Source: a virus
Lineage: Duplodnaviria; Heunggongvirae; Uroviricota; Caudoviricetes
Length of the DNA stretch: 5,943 nucleotides
IMG/VR virus record: IMGVR_UViG_2713897140_000009
Location: 1-5,943 of that record
Direction: 5' to 3' (one strand)
Made by a program: the position numbers and the translations under genes. Numbering within the stretch: position 1 is the first letter of the stretch; each line of letters opens with the position of its first letter. The notes under the pieces are model-generated. The model saw nothing but the letters and a program-made list of their open reading frames with translations. It was not told the origin of the DNA and did no database searches. Positions 1,737 through 5,878 of the stretch are shown piece by piece.

Positions 1737-2150
1737 TCAGATGGTTTTCAGTATGCGATCGATGTCGCCGTCATCGCCCGGGTTTCTGCCATCGTATGCC
1801 ATGCCAGCTGATACGGCTTTCGGGCTGTGTATGTCCATAAAGTTTTCAAAGGCTGCGGTAAGCTCTGGTGCAACCTTCTGGCGTTCCTGCTCTATGGTCA
1901 TGCTAAGAATGCTTTTAGCCGTACCAACATCGATACAAGGCACGTTTGCCATTGCACGTAACAGCGGCTGATAGTCGCCAGATTCATCAAGCGCCATAAT
2001 CGCATCAGCGCGCGGCTTGTCCTGCTCTTCCAGTTTGTTAAGTTGATATATGGCCTCGTAGGTTGATAACCCTCTGTCAGCCATTGCCCGCGCTTCGGCT
2101 TTAAATTTACTCGCCAGCGGTAGCGCCATGATGCTTTCATTCGTTGCCAT
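1737..2150 (-). CDS. Hypothetical 137-aa protein, last gene of the capsid cassette
   Basis: ATG at 2150 with AGGGGGAA 4-5 nt upstream, starting 13 nt after the gpD-like stop, followed by a terminator. Protein-like composition; I do not recognise the family. Its position and size are similar to lambda FI, but no sequence similarity is seen. Confidence 0.6.
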   Translation of the reverse strand: MATNESIMALPLASKFKAEARAMADRGLSTYEAIYQLNKLEEQDKPRADAIMALDESGDYQPLLRAMANVPCIDVGTAKSILSMTIEQERQKVAPELTAAFENFMDIHSPKAVSAGMAYDGRNPGDDGDIDRILKTI

Positions 2151-2162
2151 CGTTCCCCCTGC

Positions 2163-2498
2163 TTATCGGGCCAGCGGCTGAACGGATACGCCAGAACCCG
2201 TAAAGGCGGCGCATTTTTTCGCATCGGTGTCGACGCTCTCAGGCCAGTTAACGGCGGCAATATTGAATATCCCCGTCTTGTAACACTGTGCTGATTTCTG
2301 CTTTGACGTGTCCACGGGGTACGCCGTCAGATAAACAGCCTTGCCAGATTCCTGACCATCCCACGCCTTAAACTCGCCATTGTCCGCCAGCATCAGCGGG
2401 GTAAATTCCTGAATAACGCCAGCATCAGCGGCAAAATGTACCAGCGTCGTGGCGACCTGCTGACTGCCTGCAAATAACTCAACATATGGAGTGCCCAT
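2163..2498 (-). CDS. Head decoration protein, lambda gpD-like (111 aa)
   Basis: TPLMLADNGEFKAWDG, YKTGIFNIAAVNWPE and KKCAAFTGSGVSV align with lambda gpD TPLMLDTSSRKLVAWDG, YKSGTFRYEDVLWPE and KKRTAFAGTAISIV. Same length class; GGGAGA Shine-Dalgarno 6 nt upstream of the ATG. Confidence 0.85.
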   Translation of the reverse strand: MGTPYVELFAGSQQVATTLVHFAADAGVIQEFTPLMLADNGEFKAWDGQESGKAVYLTAYPVDTSKQKSAQCYKTGIFNIAAVNWPESVDTDAKKCAAFTGSGVSVQPLAR

Positions 2499-2509
2499 AG
2501 AATCTCCCG

Positions 2510-3565
2510 TTAACCAATTTTGACGGTAACAAATTTGCGAATATCTGCCGGAACCGGCTGCGGTGCGCTGTGCGTCTGCACGTACTCAATCGCCGGATCG
2601 CCGTCCTCAATCCAGTTTTTCGGGTAAAACATGTTTTGCGTTGCGCCCGTTCTTACTGCGTCCTGATCCATAATCGCACCATAGGCCACCAGCCCTTTAT
2701 TGTTGGTGTTGCCCAGGACAAGCAAATCAGGCTCAAGGAAATATTTTTCGGTGCCGTCGCTGTCGGCGTATTTGCCGGAATAGACGATAAGGGCAATATC
2801 GCCCAGATAGCCTTTAAAGCTCACCACTTCGCCCAGGTTTTTACACGCCAGCTCTGCGGCGGATTCTGAACCACGGGAAAGATCGTACAGCTCGCGGAAT
2901 TTTTTAAAGCTGCGTAACGTTCGCCATACCTCAGCGCCCATAATCATGACGTTGGCGGGGCAGCTGGCCTGTTCGGCGTATAGCTCGATGTCATCTGTCG
3001 GATCATGCGTCTCTTTATTCTGCTCAGACCATTTTTTTCCTGGCCCCTGATGGACAATGCAGTTTGCCGGCATATTCCAGTCGATTTCATAGCGTTCTAT
3101 GCCTTCGCCTTCAATGATGTTTTTTCCGGTCGTGACCGCATTCACTGCCAGCCATTCCACACGCGCTTTAATGGCGTTTATCTGGCGGCGCATGTTGCCA
3201 GTAATGAGGCGCATACGTCGCCAGGTGGGGTCGTTAAGCTGTGCCGGATCTTCTCCAGCCATGCGCATAATGGTTTTTGATGGATCGATTTCGTGCTTTG
3301 GCTTCATGTAGCCGGGGCGGATAGTGCTTGTTTCGTACCCTTTATCGCGCTGAACCTGGCTACCCACCATAGGCGAACAAAACGCCGACATGGTGACTTC
3401 TTCAATATCCAGGGTATCCAGCATGATGTCCTGCGTGTTGAAGGTCGCCACGTTCGGAAAAAACAGCGACGTAAACAGCGGACTGAATCTAAAATCCGGA
3501 ACATCCTGCCGATTCAGGTACGCGAAAAGCTGGTTAGTGTTAAGAGCCGTTGCTTTACCTGCCAT
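2510..3565 (-). CDS. Major capsid protein, lambda gpE-like (351 aa)
   Basis: Multiple co-linear blocks shared with lambda gpE: FRFSPLFTSLFF vs FKFDPLFLRLFF; PGYMKPKHEIDP vs PGYVKPKHEVNP; DPTDDIELYA vs DPTDDIEAYA; YPKNWIEDGDPA vs YPKNWVTTGDPA; similar length (351 vs 341 aa). Confidence 0.92.
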   Translation of the reverse strand: MAGKATALNTNQLFAYLNRQDVPDFRFSPLFTSLFFPNVATFNTQDIMLDTLDIEEVTMSAFCSPMVGSQVQRDKGYETSTIRPGYMKPKHEIDPSKTIMRMAGEDPAQLNDPTWRRMRLITGNMRRQINAIKARVEWLAVNAVTTGKNIIEGEGIERYEIDWNMPANCIVHQGPGKKWSEQNKETHDPTDDIELYAEQASCPANVMIMGAEVWRTLRSFKKFRELYDLSRGSESAAELACKNLGEVVSFKGYLGDIALIVYSGKYADSDGTEKYFLEPDLLVLGNTNNKGLVAYGAIMDQDAVRTGATQNMFYPKNWIEDGDPAIEYVQTHSAPQPVPADIRKFVTVKIG

Positions 3566-3771
3566 TATTCACCCCCGTGAACCTGATTCATGCCCAACGC
3601 CGCACGTAAATAGGCGCGCACCTGCCAGCCTGTTGACGGCTCAACCATTGCCAGCGGATCAAGTCCTGCCGCAATGCTCGCTTTTACGTTCTGCTGGTGG
3701 CGTTCCTTGAGTGCCTCCACGATGTCGGGGCTTATGTAGACTGTAACCCCACCTTTTTTCTCTTCTGCCAT
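3565..3771 (-). CDS. Small hypothetical protein (68 aa from the ATG at 3771; track ORF extends to 3804), translationally coupled to the capsid gene
   Basis: The ATG at 3771 has AAGAGGAA about 9 nt upstream, whereas the upstream ATG at 3804 has no Shine-Dalgarno. Its TAA stop overlaps the gpE-like ATG (TAATG). Family not recognised. Confidence 0.5.
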   Translation of the reverse strand: MAEEKKGGVTVYISPDIVEALKERHQQNVKASIAAGLDPLAMVEPSTGWQVRAYLRAALGMNQVHGGE

Positions 3772-3804
3772 AGTCAGAAATTCCTCTTTGACGTTAAAAA
3801 TCAT

Positions 3805-3855
3805 AACTGGATGTTCATCCAGTTATGATTATAATCATGATTTCATATTTCGCAA
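3805..3855 (-). promoter_or_regulatory. Candidate sigma70 promoter of the capsid cassette (-35 TTGCGA at 3850-3855, 16-nt spacer, -10 TATAAT at 3828-3833) overlapping two dyad operators
   Basis: A perfect TATAAT lies inside the perfect 14-bp palindrome ATGATTATAATCAT (3825-3838). Immediately downstream is the dyad AACTGGATG-N2-CATCCAGTT (3805-3824). Prediction by eye only. Confidence 0.35.
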
Positions 3856-3930
3856 TAATATCGATCCATGTTGCAAATTATGAAATGATTTCCGGAAACA
3901 GTAGTCACCATGCTGTTAACCTCATATATG

Positions 3931-3974
3931 AAAAAGCCCGCTAAGTTTGCCTCCTGTACTTATCGGGCTTTTTT
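3931..3974. terminator. Bidirectional terminator-like hairpin (A5 - interrupted 10-bp stem - T6)
   Basis: AAAAAGCCCGCTAAGT...ACTTATCGGGCTTTTTT: stem flanked by an A-run on one side and a T-run on the other, so it could terminate on either strand. Confidence 0.35.
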
Positions 3975-4020
3975 ATCTGCCTGCAAAGGTGTCGAACAAA
4001 AAAACAATCAAAATCGACAC

Positions 4021-4064
4021 CATAAAAATAAAACCACTGTAATATCAATCCATTACAGTAGTGG
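4021..4064 (-). terminator. Terminator-like hairpin (second in tandem after the SSB gene)
   Basis: 8-bp stem ACTGTAAT/ATTACAGT (4036-4043/4052-4059) with an 8-nt loop; on the minus strand it is followed by TTTTATTTTTAT. Confidence 0.35.
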
Positions 4065-4101
4065 TGATGACGAATGAAATTTCAAAAACTAGCCTTTTTC
4101 C

Positions 4102-4145
4102 GCGCCGCTCCCGCCCCGTGGCAGGTCACTACACCGGGAGGACCC
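4102..4145 (-). other. Second cosQ/cosN-like segment, lacking the ATGTCCGGTT R-repeats
   Basis: The 18-mer GCGCCGCTCCCGCCCCGT (4102-4119) is identical to 1662-1679. It is followed after the same 14-nt spacing by a slightly degenerate cosQ (minus strand GGGTCCTCCCGG, 4134-4145). The surrounding ~75 bp is about 80% identical to 1660-1735. Confidence 0.45.
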
Positions 4146-4147
4146 AT

Positions 4148-4169
4148 AAAAAAGCCGGATTGCTCCGGC
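4148..4169 (-). terminator. Rho-independent terminator after the SSB gene
   Basis: Minus strand GCCGGAGCAATCCGGC followed by TTTTTT; a paralog of the terminator at 1709-1731. Confidence 0.6.
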
Positions 4170-4862: not shown

Positions 4863-4911
4863 TTTTGTTTTTACCCCCCTCGTTTAAAAAGTTTTGGAGA
4901 TACCCCCACCT

Positions 4912-5138
4912 TGTCTACCTTATCTACCTGGTGGATGCTCAGGCCAGTAATGACGCGGGTTTTATGGTGGTAGACAGTAAAAAATCTCTGTCTACCTGAT
5001 GTCTACCCATCCCTCCGACTGGCTACAAAAACAGGTAGACAAGGTAGACAGCTTGTAGACAGTAAAAAAAAGCTGTCTACCTAAATTAATACACTGAATT
5101 AAAACAACTTTTATGTAATCAGGTAGACAAGGTAGACA
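4912..5138. repeat. Iteron-type replication origin: 11 copies of the 8-bp iteron GGTAGACA/TGTCTACC in both orientations, interspersed with A-tracts
   Basis: TGTCTACC at 4912, 4989, 5000, 5074 and a variant at 4921; GGTAGACA at 4969, 5034, 5043, 5122, 5131 and a variant at 5055. Tandem pairs have a 9-bp period. AGGTAGACAAGGTAGACAG occurs twice (5032-5050, 5120-5138). A-rich tracts at 4976-4984 and 5062-5070 could act as an unwinding element. Lies directly downstream of the rep ORF. Confidence 0.65.
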
Positions 5139-5152
5139 GCAATTGCCAAAAA

Positions 5153-5878
5153 TTATAAAAACGCGTCGCAATCGTCGGTTGTTATTGCGTTAGTCTGCGT
5201 CACTCCATTAATTTTTCGCGTAATATATTCATGTCCGTAAACTTTTGCGGCTGGCTTCATGGCCTTGCCAAAGTCATTTACGTTTAGTGGTTTGGTTCTG
5301 CCTGCGTATGCCATAAACGCCAGATAGACGCGGTAAAGGCTGTTTCTGGTCGTGTACTTCACGGAATCGCCACCGCCACCCATCATCAGGCCACGTGCTT
5401 CCTCCAGAAAATTCAGGAACTGGCAAAACTCAATAACCGGATCCGTTTGCTGCTTTATCGCCAGTGCTTCATCACCGTCACGCTGTTCCAGTAGTAAAGC
5501 CCGCGCCTTTTCAGGGTCTGCAAAGTTCGCCAGTAATCGGCGGATAATGACGGGGATTTCAGCCGCAATCTTTTCCGGTAGTTCCCTGTCTTTTTCGGCC
5601 TCGTTGACGATATTGTCGAAACGGAAAATCACGCGACGACGTGCCACGCCTCCGGCCCGTTCGGTGAATATCATCGGATTGTTATTGGTTGCCAGCACCA
5701 CCGCCCTGATTACCGCCGTAAAACGCTTTTCATATTTCGGGTTAATTTCCACGGGGTCGCCGCCCGTGATTTTCTTGATGCCCGTTCCTTCGCCTGTATA
5801 TTTCGGCTGGTCTGCCAGGACGATAAGACGACTCCCGACAACCTGTGCACGCCCACCAGCATCATCAAGCGATGTCAT
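5153..5878 (-). CDS. Replication protein resembling the C-terminal region of P4-family (D5-like) primase/SF3 helicases; no Walker A in this ORF
   Basis: GSRLIVLADQ (Walker-B-like region), KKITGGDPV, VVLATNNNP (SF3 motif-C-like TNNxP), RRRVIFRFDN and ELPEKIAAEIPVII match the conserved post-Walker-A pattern of P4 alpha-type proteins as I recall it. No GxxxxGK[ST] motif is present. The ATG overlaps the stop of the upstream ORF (ATGA). Confidence 0.6.
   Translation of the reverse strand: MTSLDDAGGRAQVVGSRLIVLADQPKYTGEGTGIKKITGGDPVEINPKYEKRFTAVIRAVVLATNNNPMIFTERAGGVARRRVIFRFDNIVNEAEKDRELPEKIAAEIPVIIRRLLANFADPEKARALLLEQRDGDEALAIKQQTDPVIEFCQFLNFLEEARGLMMGGGGDSVKYTTRNSLYRVYLAFMAYAGRTKPLNVNDFGKAMKPAAKVYGHEYITRKINGVTQTNAITTDDCDAFL

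What the first reader, a model, noticed from the sequence alone, without database searches (positions are those of the whole stretch)
3805..3855. Capsid cassette promoter overlapped by two dyad operators
A perfect TATAAT sits within the perfect palindrome ATGATTATAATCAT, and the dyad AACTGGATG-N2-CATCCAGTT lies at the predicted transcript start. This implies the capsid cassette is repressed until an induction signal (helper- or element-encoded) arrives, as expected for a satellite late operon.
Basis: inference. Interest (0 to 1): 0.5.

Follow-up and report, generated by a model that had tools for sequence, protein, structure and literature searches.

The report
SOS (LexA) box on PICI capsid promoter
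The dyad at the start of this E. coli phage-satellite's capsid operon is most likely a binding site for the host DNA-damage repressor LexA. If so, the satellite would switch on its capsid and packaging genes with the same SOS signal that wakes its helper prophage.

Summary
The window is an EcCICFT073-type phage-inducible chromosomal island (PICI) of E. coli, with all genes on the minus strand. Upstream of the capsid cassette sits a conserved sigma-70 promoter: -35 TTGCGA at 3855-3850, a 16-nt spacer, and -10 TATAAT at 3833-3828.

The dyad AACTGGATG-N2-CATCCAGTT (3805-3824) starts 3 nt after the -10. It fits the LexA SOS box pattern CTG-N10-CAG:
- It scores 21.2 bits on a matrix built from 20 published E. 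coli LexA boxes, which places it eighth among them.
- It is close to the ruvA and cho boxes.
- None of 200 shuffles of the window comes near this score.

Four diverged lineages keep the box at the same distance from TATAAT while changing its centre in ways LexA tolerates. Two of these changes break the dyad symmetry. The repressor is therefore most likely host LexA, not a helper- or element-encoded protein. This parallels LexA control of staphylococcal SaPI operon I.

The second proposed operator, ATGATTATAATCAT, is not more than chance and is largely the self-complementary -10. In E. coli the dyad extends to a perfect 32-bp palindrome (3799-3830) followed by a T-run. Its outer arms show compensatory changes, and this remains unexplained. 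Nothing was tested experimentally.

The parts
3850..3855 (-). -35 hexamer TTGCGA of the capsid-cassette promoter
   Evidence: Promoter scan. TTGC is invariant in 52 variants. TTGCNN-16 nt-TATAAT is kept in Salmonella and in two more distant relatives.
3828..3833 (-). -10 hexamer TATAAT
   Evidence: It is invariant or nearly so in 52 variants. Box-less relatives have TAAAAT at the same place.
3805..3824 (.). Predicted LexA (SOS) box: 20-mer AACTGGATGAACATCCAGTT on the minus strand, with core CTG-N10-CAG at 3807-3822. It covers roughly -3 to +17 of the promoter.
   Evidence: PWM score of 21.2 bits, with none of 200 shuffles reaching it. 50 of 52 variants score at least 17 bits. The box is kept with altered centres in L085, L089 and L094.
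3799..3830 (.). Perfect 32-bp inverted repeat (15-nt arms, 2-nt centre) that contains the LexA box. The outer arms AATCAT/ATGATT lie outside the LexA 20-mer. On the minus strand it is followed by a T-run (3794-3800 region).
   Evidence: Covariation is shown. The RNA hairpin has z-scores of -4.5 and -5.4.
3825..3838 (.). 14-bp palindrome ATGATTATAATCAT centred on the -10. No independent evidence that it is an operator.
   Evidence: It is not kept in Salmonella.
3841..3855 (-). Proximal upstream dyad overlapping the -35. It reads TTGCG-N5-TGAAA in the window and TTGCA-N5-TGCAA in most relatives.
   Evidence: Alignments. It is kept in Salmonella, Edwardsiella, L089, L094 and L096.
3871..3885 (-). 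Distal upstream dyad TTTCA-N5-TGCAA, about 31 nt upstream of the proximal one. Probably the site of an unidentified regulator.
   Evidence: two matches in the window (the other, 5509-5523, lies inside the primase gene) against 0.08 expected by chance. Its TTTCA and AATTTGCAA stretches are invariant in 52 variants, with one variable base between them. Edwardsiella has two tandem copies.
3781..3788 (-). Shine-Dalgarno sequence AAGAGGAA of the first cassette gene
   Evidence: invariant.
3565..3771 (-). First cassette gene, 68 aa, function unknown (phrog_3255)
   Evidence: No Pfam family and no fold match.
2510..3565 (-). Major capsid protein homologue (lambda gpE family)
   Evidence: Pfam Phage_cap_E, E = 9e-50.
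2163..2498 (-). Head decoration protein homologue (lambda gpD family)
   Evidence: Pfam HDPD, E = 2.9e-17.
1737..2150 (-). 137-aa protein resembling the C-terminal (Nu3/scaffold-like) part of head maturation proteases
   Evidence: phrog_53, profile positions 494-567 of 583, E = 2e-8.
3928..3976 (.). Bidirectional terminator-like hairpin that insulates the promoter from upstream transcription
   Evidence: Conserved in relatives.

Best explanation
The window is an EcCICFT073-type phage-inducible chromosomal island. Its capsid and packaging cassette runs on the minus strand. The genes in order are a 68-aa protein, a gpE-like capsid protein, a gpD-like decoration protein and a Nu3-like protein; intact relatives also carry a TerS-like gene. 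The cassette is transcribed from a sigma-70 promoter, TTGCGA-16 nt-TATAAT.

The dyad AACTGGATGAACATCCAGTT begins 3 nt downstream of the -10 and spans the predicted start site. I read it as an SOS box bound by the host LexA dimer. The proposed mechanism has three steps:
1. In undamaged cells LexA occludes the start site and keeps the cassette off.
2. DNA damage activates RecA, which makes LexA cleave itself, and the promoter is freed.
3. The same signal induces resident lambdoid helper prophages, so satellite capsid and packaging proteins would appear just as the helper starts its lytic cycle.

Shown here: the sequence, its match to LexA boxes, its position, and its conservation. Inferred: LexA binding, repression, and the start site.

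Two features probably add further control that I could not assign. One is the extension of the box into a perfect 32-bp palindrome with a T-run. The other is the pair of conserved upstream dyads.
For: 1. Match to known LexA boxes. I built a matrix from 20 E. coli LexA boxes printed in PMC3009722 Tables 4 and 7.
- Window 3806-3823 scores 21.2 bits. That ranks eighth among the known sites, above recA, cho, ruvA and sulA.
- The next best site in the window scores 13.8 bits.
- None of 200 shuffles reaches 21.2 bits; the mean maximum is 7.7.

2. Published boxes with the same half-sites. The ruvA box (GCTGGATATCTATCCAGC) and the cho box (ACTGGATAGATAACCAGC) use CTGG/CCAG half-sites, as this site does. 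PMC11228462 gives CTG-N10-CAG as the invariant consensus.

3. Positive control and background rate. The matrix recovers the umuD box of CFT073 at 25.2 bits. In 157 kb of E. coli DNA, apart from the island's own box, it finds only one other site of at least 20 bits and a 17.5-bit match that lacks CAG.

4. Conservation within E. coli. 50 of 52 distinct promoter variants from 84 related loci score at least 17 bits. CTG and CAG are kept in 51 or 52 of 52 sequences. The three single-base core variants move towards the LexA consensus (G7 to A, A8 to T, C13 to A), and C13 to A breaks the dyad. A fourth core variant, seen in one sequence, changes the centre from AA to TT.

5. Conservation across diverged lineages. 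Relatives whose 68-aa protein is 57-65% identical keep TTGCNN-16 nt-TATAAT-5 nt-CTG-N10-CAG but with different centres:
- Salmonella L085: CTGGATAAATATCCAG, 20.1 bits.
- L094: CTGGATGCACATACAG, 20.6 bits.
- L089: CTGTATATAAATTCAG, 22.4 bits. This one has the canonical CTGT, and the core dyad is lost.

6. Presence in the prototype. EcCICFT073 carries the identical promoter and box.

7. Precedent. SaPI operon I, the packaging module of staphylococcal PICIs, is controlled by LexA (Ubeda et al. 2007, cited in PMC6092414 and PMC6739421).
Against: - There are no binding data, expression data or start-site mapping. The promoter is only a consensus match.
- LexA contacts about 20 bp, but in E. coli the symmetry runs to 32 bp. 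The outer arms show compensatory changes (four pairs with changes on both sides; none of 500 shuffles is as high). LexA does not explain this.
- Both half-sites are the weaker CTGG type.
- Three relatives (L072, L096, Edwardsiella L087) lack the box entirely, so it is not essential to the cassette.
- Fillol-Salom et al. 2018 found that induction of alpA, the island's master activator gene, depends on the helper phage and not on SOS. SOS control of this operon would therefore be a separate layer.
Confidence: 0.72

Rival explanations
1. One reading: the dyads are operators for a dedicated repressor encoded by the island or by the helper phage, which holds the cassette off until a helper-specific signal arrives.
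For: - The symmetry extends well beyond the LexA 20-mer, to perfect 15-nt arms.
- The outer-arm pairs covary: T-A, C-G and G-C at one pair, and C-G to T-A at another.
- The hexamer xTGATT/AATCAx recurs at 3799-3804, 3825-3830, 3833-3842 and 3885-3890.
- The end pair of the 14-bp palindrome also covaries: 24 A-T against 10 C-G, with 2 of 500 shuffles as high.
Against: - No candidate repressor gene was found. The 68-aa first gene has no Pfam family and no DNA-binding fold match.
- The outer arms are imperfect in the commonest variant classes: 21 of 52 sequences have a G-A mismatch.
- The outer arms are only 4 bp in Salmonella and L094.
- Relatives change the core in ways that break the dyad but keep the LexA pattern.
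- The covariation could come from shared ancestry, or from templated correction of quasi-palindromes. The latter is a known mutational process in E. coli (my own knowledge).
Confidence: 0.12
2. The palindrome acts mainly as an RNA hairpin on the sense (minus) strand. It could be an intrinsic terminator or attenuator (hairpin plus U-run) that needs antitermination by a helper or by AlpA. Alternatively it could be a 5' stem-loop that stabilises the mRNA.
For: - The RNA fold gives a 14-bp stem: minimum free energy -22.9 kcal/mol with z = -4.5 in the window, and -24.5 kcal/mol with z = -5.4 in EcCICFT073.
- The hairpin is followed by 5-7 U, which are conserved.
- All one-sided changes that keep pairing are A to G, giving G-U on the sense strand (24 cells at 5 pairs). 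Four pairs have changes on both sides.
- A Pseudomonas protein also named AlpA works as an antiterminator (my own knowledge; its relation to the PICI AlpA was not examined).
Against: - The only conserved promoter overlaps the left arm. Its predicted transcript starts inside the hairpin and keeps only about 5 bp of stem (z = -0.6).
- Upstream transcription already meets two or three terminators.
- The stem base is A-U rich, and the terminator scan did not call it.
- Salmonella and L089 show no significant fold (z = +0.14 and -0.43), yet both keep the LexA box.
- There is no Rfam match.
Confidence: 0.12
3. A constitutive promoter whose palindromes have no regulatory function, arising by chance or as by-products of mutation.
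For: The 14-bp palindrome alone is within chance: 104 of 300 shuffles have one.
Against: - The 15-nt arms are never reached in 300 shuffles.
- The CTG-N10-CAG core is held at a fixed distance from the -10 across four lineages, while the surrounding intergenic sequence diverges.
Confidence: 0.04

Closest known systems
LexA control of SaPI operon I (Staphylococcus aureus pathogenicity islands; Ubeda et al. 2007, cited in PMC6092414)
   Same: In both cases a phage satellite puts its capsid-remodelling and packaging operon under the host SOS repressor. The operon is then expressed when DNA damage induces the helper prophage, separately from the satellite's master induction switch.
   Different: The elements are unrelated, and so are the genes. 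The LexA motifs also differ: the Gram-positive box is not CTG-N10-CAG (my own knowledge). Here the evidence is sequence only. This would be convergence, not homology.
E. coli SOS boxes of ruvAB and cho (PMC3009722, Table 4)
   Same: They use the same CTGGAT...ATCCAG or ACCAG half-sites, have the same 16-bp core length and score similarly (19.9 and 20.2 bits, against 21.2 here).
   Different: Those sites are chromosomal DNA-repair promoters and are not embedded in a 32-bp perfect palindrome. Their induction ratios are modest: 2- to 3-fold for ruvAB in PMC11228462.
EcCICFT073, the prototype Gram-negative PICI (Fillol-Salom et al. 2018, 2019)
   Same: It has the same gene order (int, alpA, primase, ori, ssb, then the capsid, decoration and TerS-like genes). 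It has the identical promoter and palindrome upstream of its 68-aa gene and c1499-type capsid gene.
   Different: The published work describes helper-dependent AlpA activation, cos sites and Rpp. In the papers I could search it does not describe this promoter or any LexA box. The copy in the window lacks perC, has the cos region between ssb and the promoter, and has an IS-disrupted primase.
SOS-controlled switches in temperate phages, such as the LexA-repressed tum antirepressor promoter of coliphage 186 (my own knowledge)
   Same: A mobile element uses a host LexA box over a promoter to sense DNA damage directly.
   Different: There LexA controls the lysis-lysogeny decision. Here it would control structural and packaging genes of a satellite.

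Membership tests
LexA (SOS) operator of Enterobacteria | Invariant CTG-N10-CAG core | tested here: met
   CTG at 3807-3809 and CAG at 3820-3822. The consensus is as stated in PMC11228462.
LexA (SOS) operator of Enterobacteria | Overall match within the range of validated sites | tested here: met
   21.2 bits. The 20 published sites range from 15.3 to 26.6 bits. My heterology-type index is 4.8, against 1.2-8.5 for the known sites.
LexA (SOS) operator of Enterobacteria | Overlaps the core promoter or start site of the regulated gene | tested here: inconclusive
   The box starts 3 nt after a conserved TATAAT. However, the promoter and start site are predictions only.
LexA (SOS) operator of Enterobacteria | The motif, rather than the exact sequence, is conserved in orthologous promoters | tested here: met
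   Four lineages have different centres and the same spacing. Three box-less lineages exist.
LexA (SOS) operator of Enterobacteria | LexA binding, and RecA- and LexA-dependent induction by DNA damage | not testable with these tools
   This needs EMSA or footprinting, and reporter assays in lexA(Def) and lexA3(Ind-) strains.
EcCICFT073-type PICI | Integrase, alpA, primase-helicase with an adjacent iteron ori, a cos site, and a small set of capsid and packaging genes, without a full phage gene set | tested here: met
   Island layout in the 99.9% identical genome copy. Iterons at 4863-5152. The cos region matches the termini of phage mEp460. The cassette is shared with CFT073.
Intrinsic (Rho-independent) terminator | A stable G+C-rich stem immediately followed by a U-tract, lying within a transcript | tested here: inconclusive
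   The stem is stable and followed by 5-7 U. Against this, its base is A-U rich, the scan did not call it, and the predicted transcript starts inside it.
Ribbon-helix-helix autorepressor (considered for the 68-aa first gene) | A beta-alpha-alpha fold with matches to Arc, MetJ or CopG family members | tested here: not met
   No Pfam family. The AlphaFold model has pLDDT 75, with two strands and two helices separated by a long loop. No PDB match below E = 3.

The most novel reading that the evidence does not exclude
The 32-bp palindrome may be a two-key switch. As DNA it would be a LexA operator. As sense-strand RNA it would be a hairpin with a U-run that stops or destabilises transcripts, unless a helper- or island-encoded factor overrides it. 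That factor could be an AlpA-type antiterminator, or the unknown protein that binds the conserved TTKCA-N5-TGMAA dyads. Capsid and packaging genes would then fire only when SOS and a helper are both present.
Probability: 0.12. Interest if true: 0.65.

Novelty: new member of a known kind. Interest (0 to 1): 0.45.

Why it matters
Published work on Gram-negative PICIs explains induction through helper-dependent AlpA. It does not say how the capsid and packaging cassette, which includes the Rpp packaging-redirection gene in intact islands, is timed.

A LexA box on that promoter would mean these islands read the host SOS signal directly. That would be a convergent copy of the strategy known from staphylococcal SaPIs. 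SOS-inducing antibiotics could then prime satellite packaging and phage interference even before a helper acts.

The idea is cheap to test in the existing EcCICFT073 system, because that island carries the identical site.

Tried and rejected
- Searches for cross-species relatives in genome contigs returned nothing, with either the 68-aa alignment or the capsid protein as query. I used IMG/VR loci and exact-protein look-ups instead.
- Rfam has no family for the region. The only hits were chance mir-374 matches to the terminator hairpin.
- The idea that the 68-aa first gene is a ribbon-helix-helix autorepressor was rejected.
- A second LexA-like hit at 5018-5035 (13.8 bits) is an iteron-like stretch of the ori, not an SOS box.
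- An upstream tandem promoter (TTCATA-18 nt-TATTAT) was dropped, because its -10 is not conserved among variants.
- The 11-mer GGTGACTACTG upstream of the cassette resembles GGTGGGTACTG upstream of alpA. By my estimate this is within chance.
- The TTKCA-N5-TGMAA dyad was not found at other promoters of the island.
- By eye I compared the region with the lambda CII, Fur, IHF, sigma-54 and P2 Ogr / P4 Delta site consensuses from memory. None fitted.
- Two look-ups in CFT073 hit the wrong regions before the island was found.

Full report
**What the window is**

The window matches E. coli chromosomes at 99.9% identity. In the best match it lies in an island inserted beside tRNA-Pro and yejM. That island carries an integrase, an AlpA-type HTH gene, ash and icd-like genes, a primase split by an IS110-family element, and ssb. 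An intergenic gap follows, and then come a 68-aa gene, a major capsid gene, a head decoration gene and small ORFs. All are on the minus strand of the window.

Pfam confirms lambda gpE-like capsid and gpD-like decoration proteins, an SSB and a D5-type primase C-terminus. The 137-aa ORF resembles the C-terminal, Nu3-like part of head maturation proteases.

The prototype Gram-negative PICI, EcCICFT073, has the same layout next to phoQ in CFT073. Fillol-Salom et al. 2018 describe its capsid (c1499) and decoration (c1500) homologues, its cos sites and its helper-dependent AlpA activator.

**The observation**

The downstream dyad is larger than reported. It is a perfect inverted repeat with 15-nt arms, at 3799-3813 and 3816-3830. 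It is the longest in the window and is never reached in 300 dinucleotide-preserving shuffles, whose mean longest arm is 7.9 nt and maximum 13 nt.

The 14-bp palindrome ATGATTATAATCAT is not unusual on its own. 104 of 300 shuffles contain a perfect palindrome at least that long. Most of it is the self-complementary ATTATAAT around the -10.

On the coding (minus) strand the consensus scan finds TTGCGA (3855-3850), a 16-nt spacer and TATAAT (3833-3828). A Shine-Dalgarno sequence AAGAGGAA and the annotated ATG at 3771 follow. The longer 79-aa ORF that starts at 3804 is unlikely to be the real product.

**Comparative data**

I collected 80 IMG/VR loci with capsids 89-100% identical to this one, plus E. 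coli genome copies. Together they give 52 distinct versions of the promoter region.

The following are invariant or nearly so:
- TTGC of the -35.
- TATAAT.
- CTG and CAG of the dyad.
- The T-run.
- The Shine-Dalgarno sequence.

More distant relatives were reached through homologues of the 68-aa protein and exact-protein look-ups. Those with a box read as follows:
- Salmonella L085: TTGCGA-16 nt-TATAAT-CAGGA-CTGGATAAATATCCAG.
- L094: TTGCTT-16 nt-TATAAT-CATGA-CTGGATGCACATACAG.
- L089: TTGCGG-16 nt-TATAAT-CATCA-CTGTATATAAATTCAG.

Three relatives keep the promoter with a TAAAAT -10 but have no dyad: L072, L096 and Edwardsiella L087.

**What the dyad is**

The element conserved across lineages is CTG-N10-CAG with an A/T-rich centre, 5 nt after the -10. 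The specific sequence CTGGATG/CATCCAG is not conserved. CTG-N10-CAG is the Enterobacterial LexA box, with full consensus TACTG(TA)5CAGTA (PMC6590174 and PMC11228462).

I built a symmetrised matrix from 20 E. coli boxes printed in PMC3009722. The results are:
- The window site scores 21.2 bits. That is eighth among the known sites and above recA, cho, ruvA and sulA. The ruvA and cho boxes share its CTGG/CCAG half-sites.
- The next best site in the window scores 13.8 bits. None of 200 shuffles reaches 21.2 bits.
- The matrix recovers the umuD box in CFT073 at 25.2 bits. In 157 kb of E. coli DNA, apart from the island's own box, it finds only one other site of at least 20 bits and a 17.5-bit match that lacks CAG.
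- 50 of 52 variants score at least 17 bits.
- The three single-base core variants all move towards the LexA consensus: G7 to A, A8 to T and C13 to A. The last one breaks the dyad. A fourth core variant, seen in one sequence, changes the centre from AA to TT.
- L089 has the canonical CTGT and has lost the core dyad, yet it scores 22.4 bits.

On this evidence the dyad is a LexA operator placed over the transcription start. I put the probability at about 0.7.

**Mechanism**

LexA bound from about -3 to +17 would block open-complex formation or promoter escape. RecA-stimulated LexA self-cleavage after DNA damage would release the promoter.

The helpers of this PICI family are SOS-inducible lambdoid prophages, lambda and phi80 for EcCICFT073. 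The cos region here matches phage mEp460. Satellite capsid and packaging proteins would therefore be made as the helper enters lytic growth.

Staphylococcal SaPI operon I follows the same logic and is controlled by LexA (Ubeda 2007, cited). I found no paper in the searchable library that links LexA to a Gram-negative PICI or that prints this sequence.

**What LexA does not explain**

In E. coli the symmetry extends 6 bp beyond the LexA 20-mer on each side (AATCAT/ATGATT). Counting pairs on the 52 variants gives the following:
- 94.9% of cells are paired.
- Four pairs have changes on both sides, for example T-A to C-G or G-C, and C-G to T-A. None of 500 shuffles is as high.
- The one-sided changes that keep pairing are all A to G, which gives G-U on the sense strand.

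As RNA the full element folds to a 14-bp stem (z = -4.5 and -5.4), followed by 5-7 U.

Several points argue against a role at the RNA level:
- The only conserved promoter overlaps the left arm, so its transcript would keep about 5 bp of stem (z = -0.6).
- Upstream transcription already meets terminators.
- 21 of 52 variants carry a G-A mismatch in the outer stem.
- Salmonella and L089 show no significant fold.

Templated correction of quasi-palindromes, or shared ancestry, could produce the covariation without selection. I leave this as an unresolved second layer.

Separately, two dyads of the form TTKCA-N5-TGMAA lie about 31 nt apart. The proximal one overlaps the -35. They are conserved as far as Edwardsiella, including in the box-less relatives. 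They are the best candidates for an island- or helper-encoded regulator. I could not identify that protein. The 68-aa first gene shows no DNA-binding family or fold, and the motif does not recur at other island promoters.

**Verdict**

It is a repressed satellite late promoter, but the repressor is most likely host LexA and the signal is SOS. The proposed -10 palindrome operator has no independent support.
- This is a new member of a known kind: an SOS box on a mobile-element promoter, converging on the SaPI operon I arrangement.
- Interest is moderate. The idea is directly testable in EcCICFT073, which carries the identical site.

Noticed in passing
window 3985-4150: The cos region. It is 92-96% identical to the genome termini of lambdoid phage mEp460, and one record of that phage starts at about window 4121. 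The minus strand reads ACGGGGCGGGAGCGGCGCGG, which resembles lambda cosN (from memory). This stretch alone occurs, unannotated, in about 2,600 E. coli genomes.
   Followed up: partly
window 4863-5152: Replication origin: at least 12 copies of the iteron GGTAGACA(G)/TGTCTACC in both orientations, directly downstream of the primase gene. The weak LexA-like match at 5018-5035 is part of this array.
   Followed up: partly
window 1737-2150 (-): The 137-aa ORF matches only the C-terminal part of head maturation proteases (phrog_53, positions 494-567 of 583). That is a Nu3-like scaffold domain without the protease. The gene order capsid, decoration, scaffold is the reverse of the lambda order.
   Followed up: no
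window 5153-5878 (-); L001 16988-20261: The primase ORF in the window is only a C-terminal fragment. In the 99.9% identical genome copy an IS110-family element splits the primase, and several neighbouring genes are pseudogenes. This copy of the island is probably not able to replicate.
   Followed up: no
L093 22960-23208 (EcCICFT073); L003 4313-4585; L004 4675-4947; L085 2482-2760: Many relatives, including the prototype EcCICFT073, O157:H7 and Salmonella, carry a PerC-family regulator gene immediately upstream of the cassette promoter. The window's island lacks it and has the cos region there instead.
   Followed up: no
L087 5120-6213 (Edwardsiella tarda): The Edwardsiella relative continues past the decoration gene into a portal gene and an S49 protease gene. 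It therefore has a fuller lambda-like head module, and it lacks the LexA box.
   Followed up: no
L092 24337-24354 (CFT073, between minC and ycgJ): A 21.6-bit LexA-like site, CCTGTTTAAATATCCAGT, lies in a chromosomal intergenic region. I do not know whether it is a described SOS box.
   Followed up: no
L001 22920-22990 (upstream of the alpA-type gene): GTGGGTAC occurs twice, about 20 nt apart, around a 16-bp palindrome ACCGTTTTAAAACGGT. These are possible regulatory sites of the alpA promoter.
   Followed up: no
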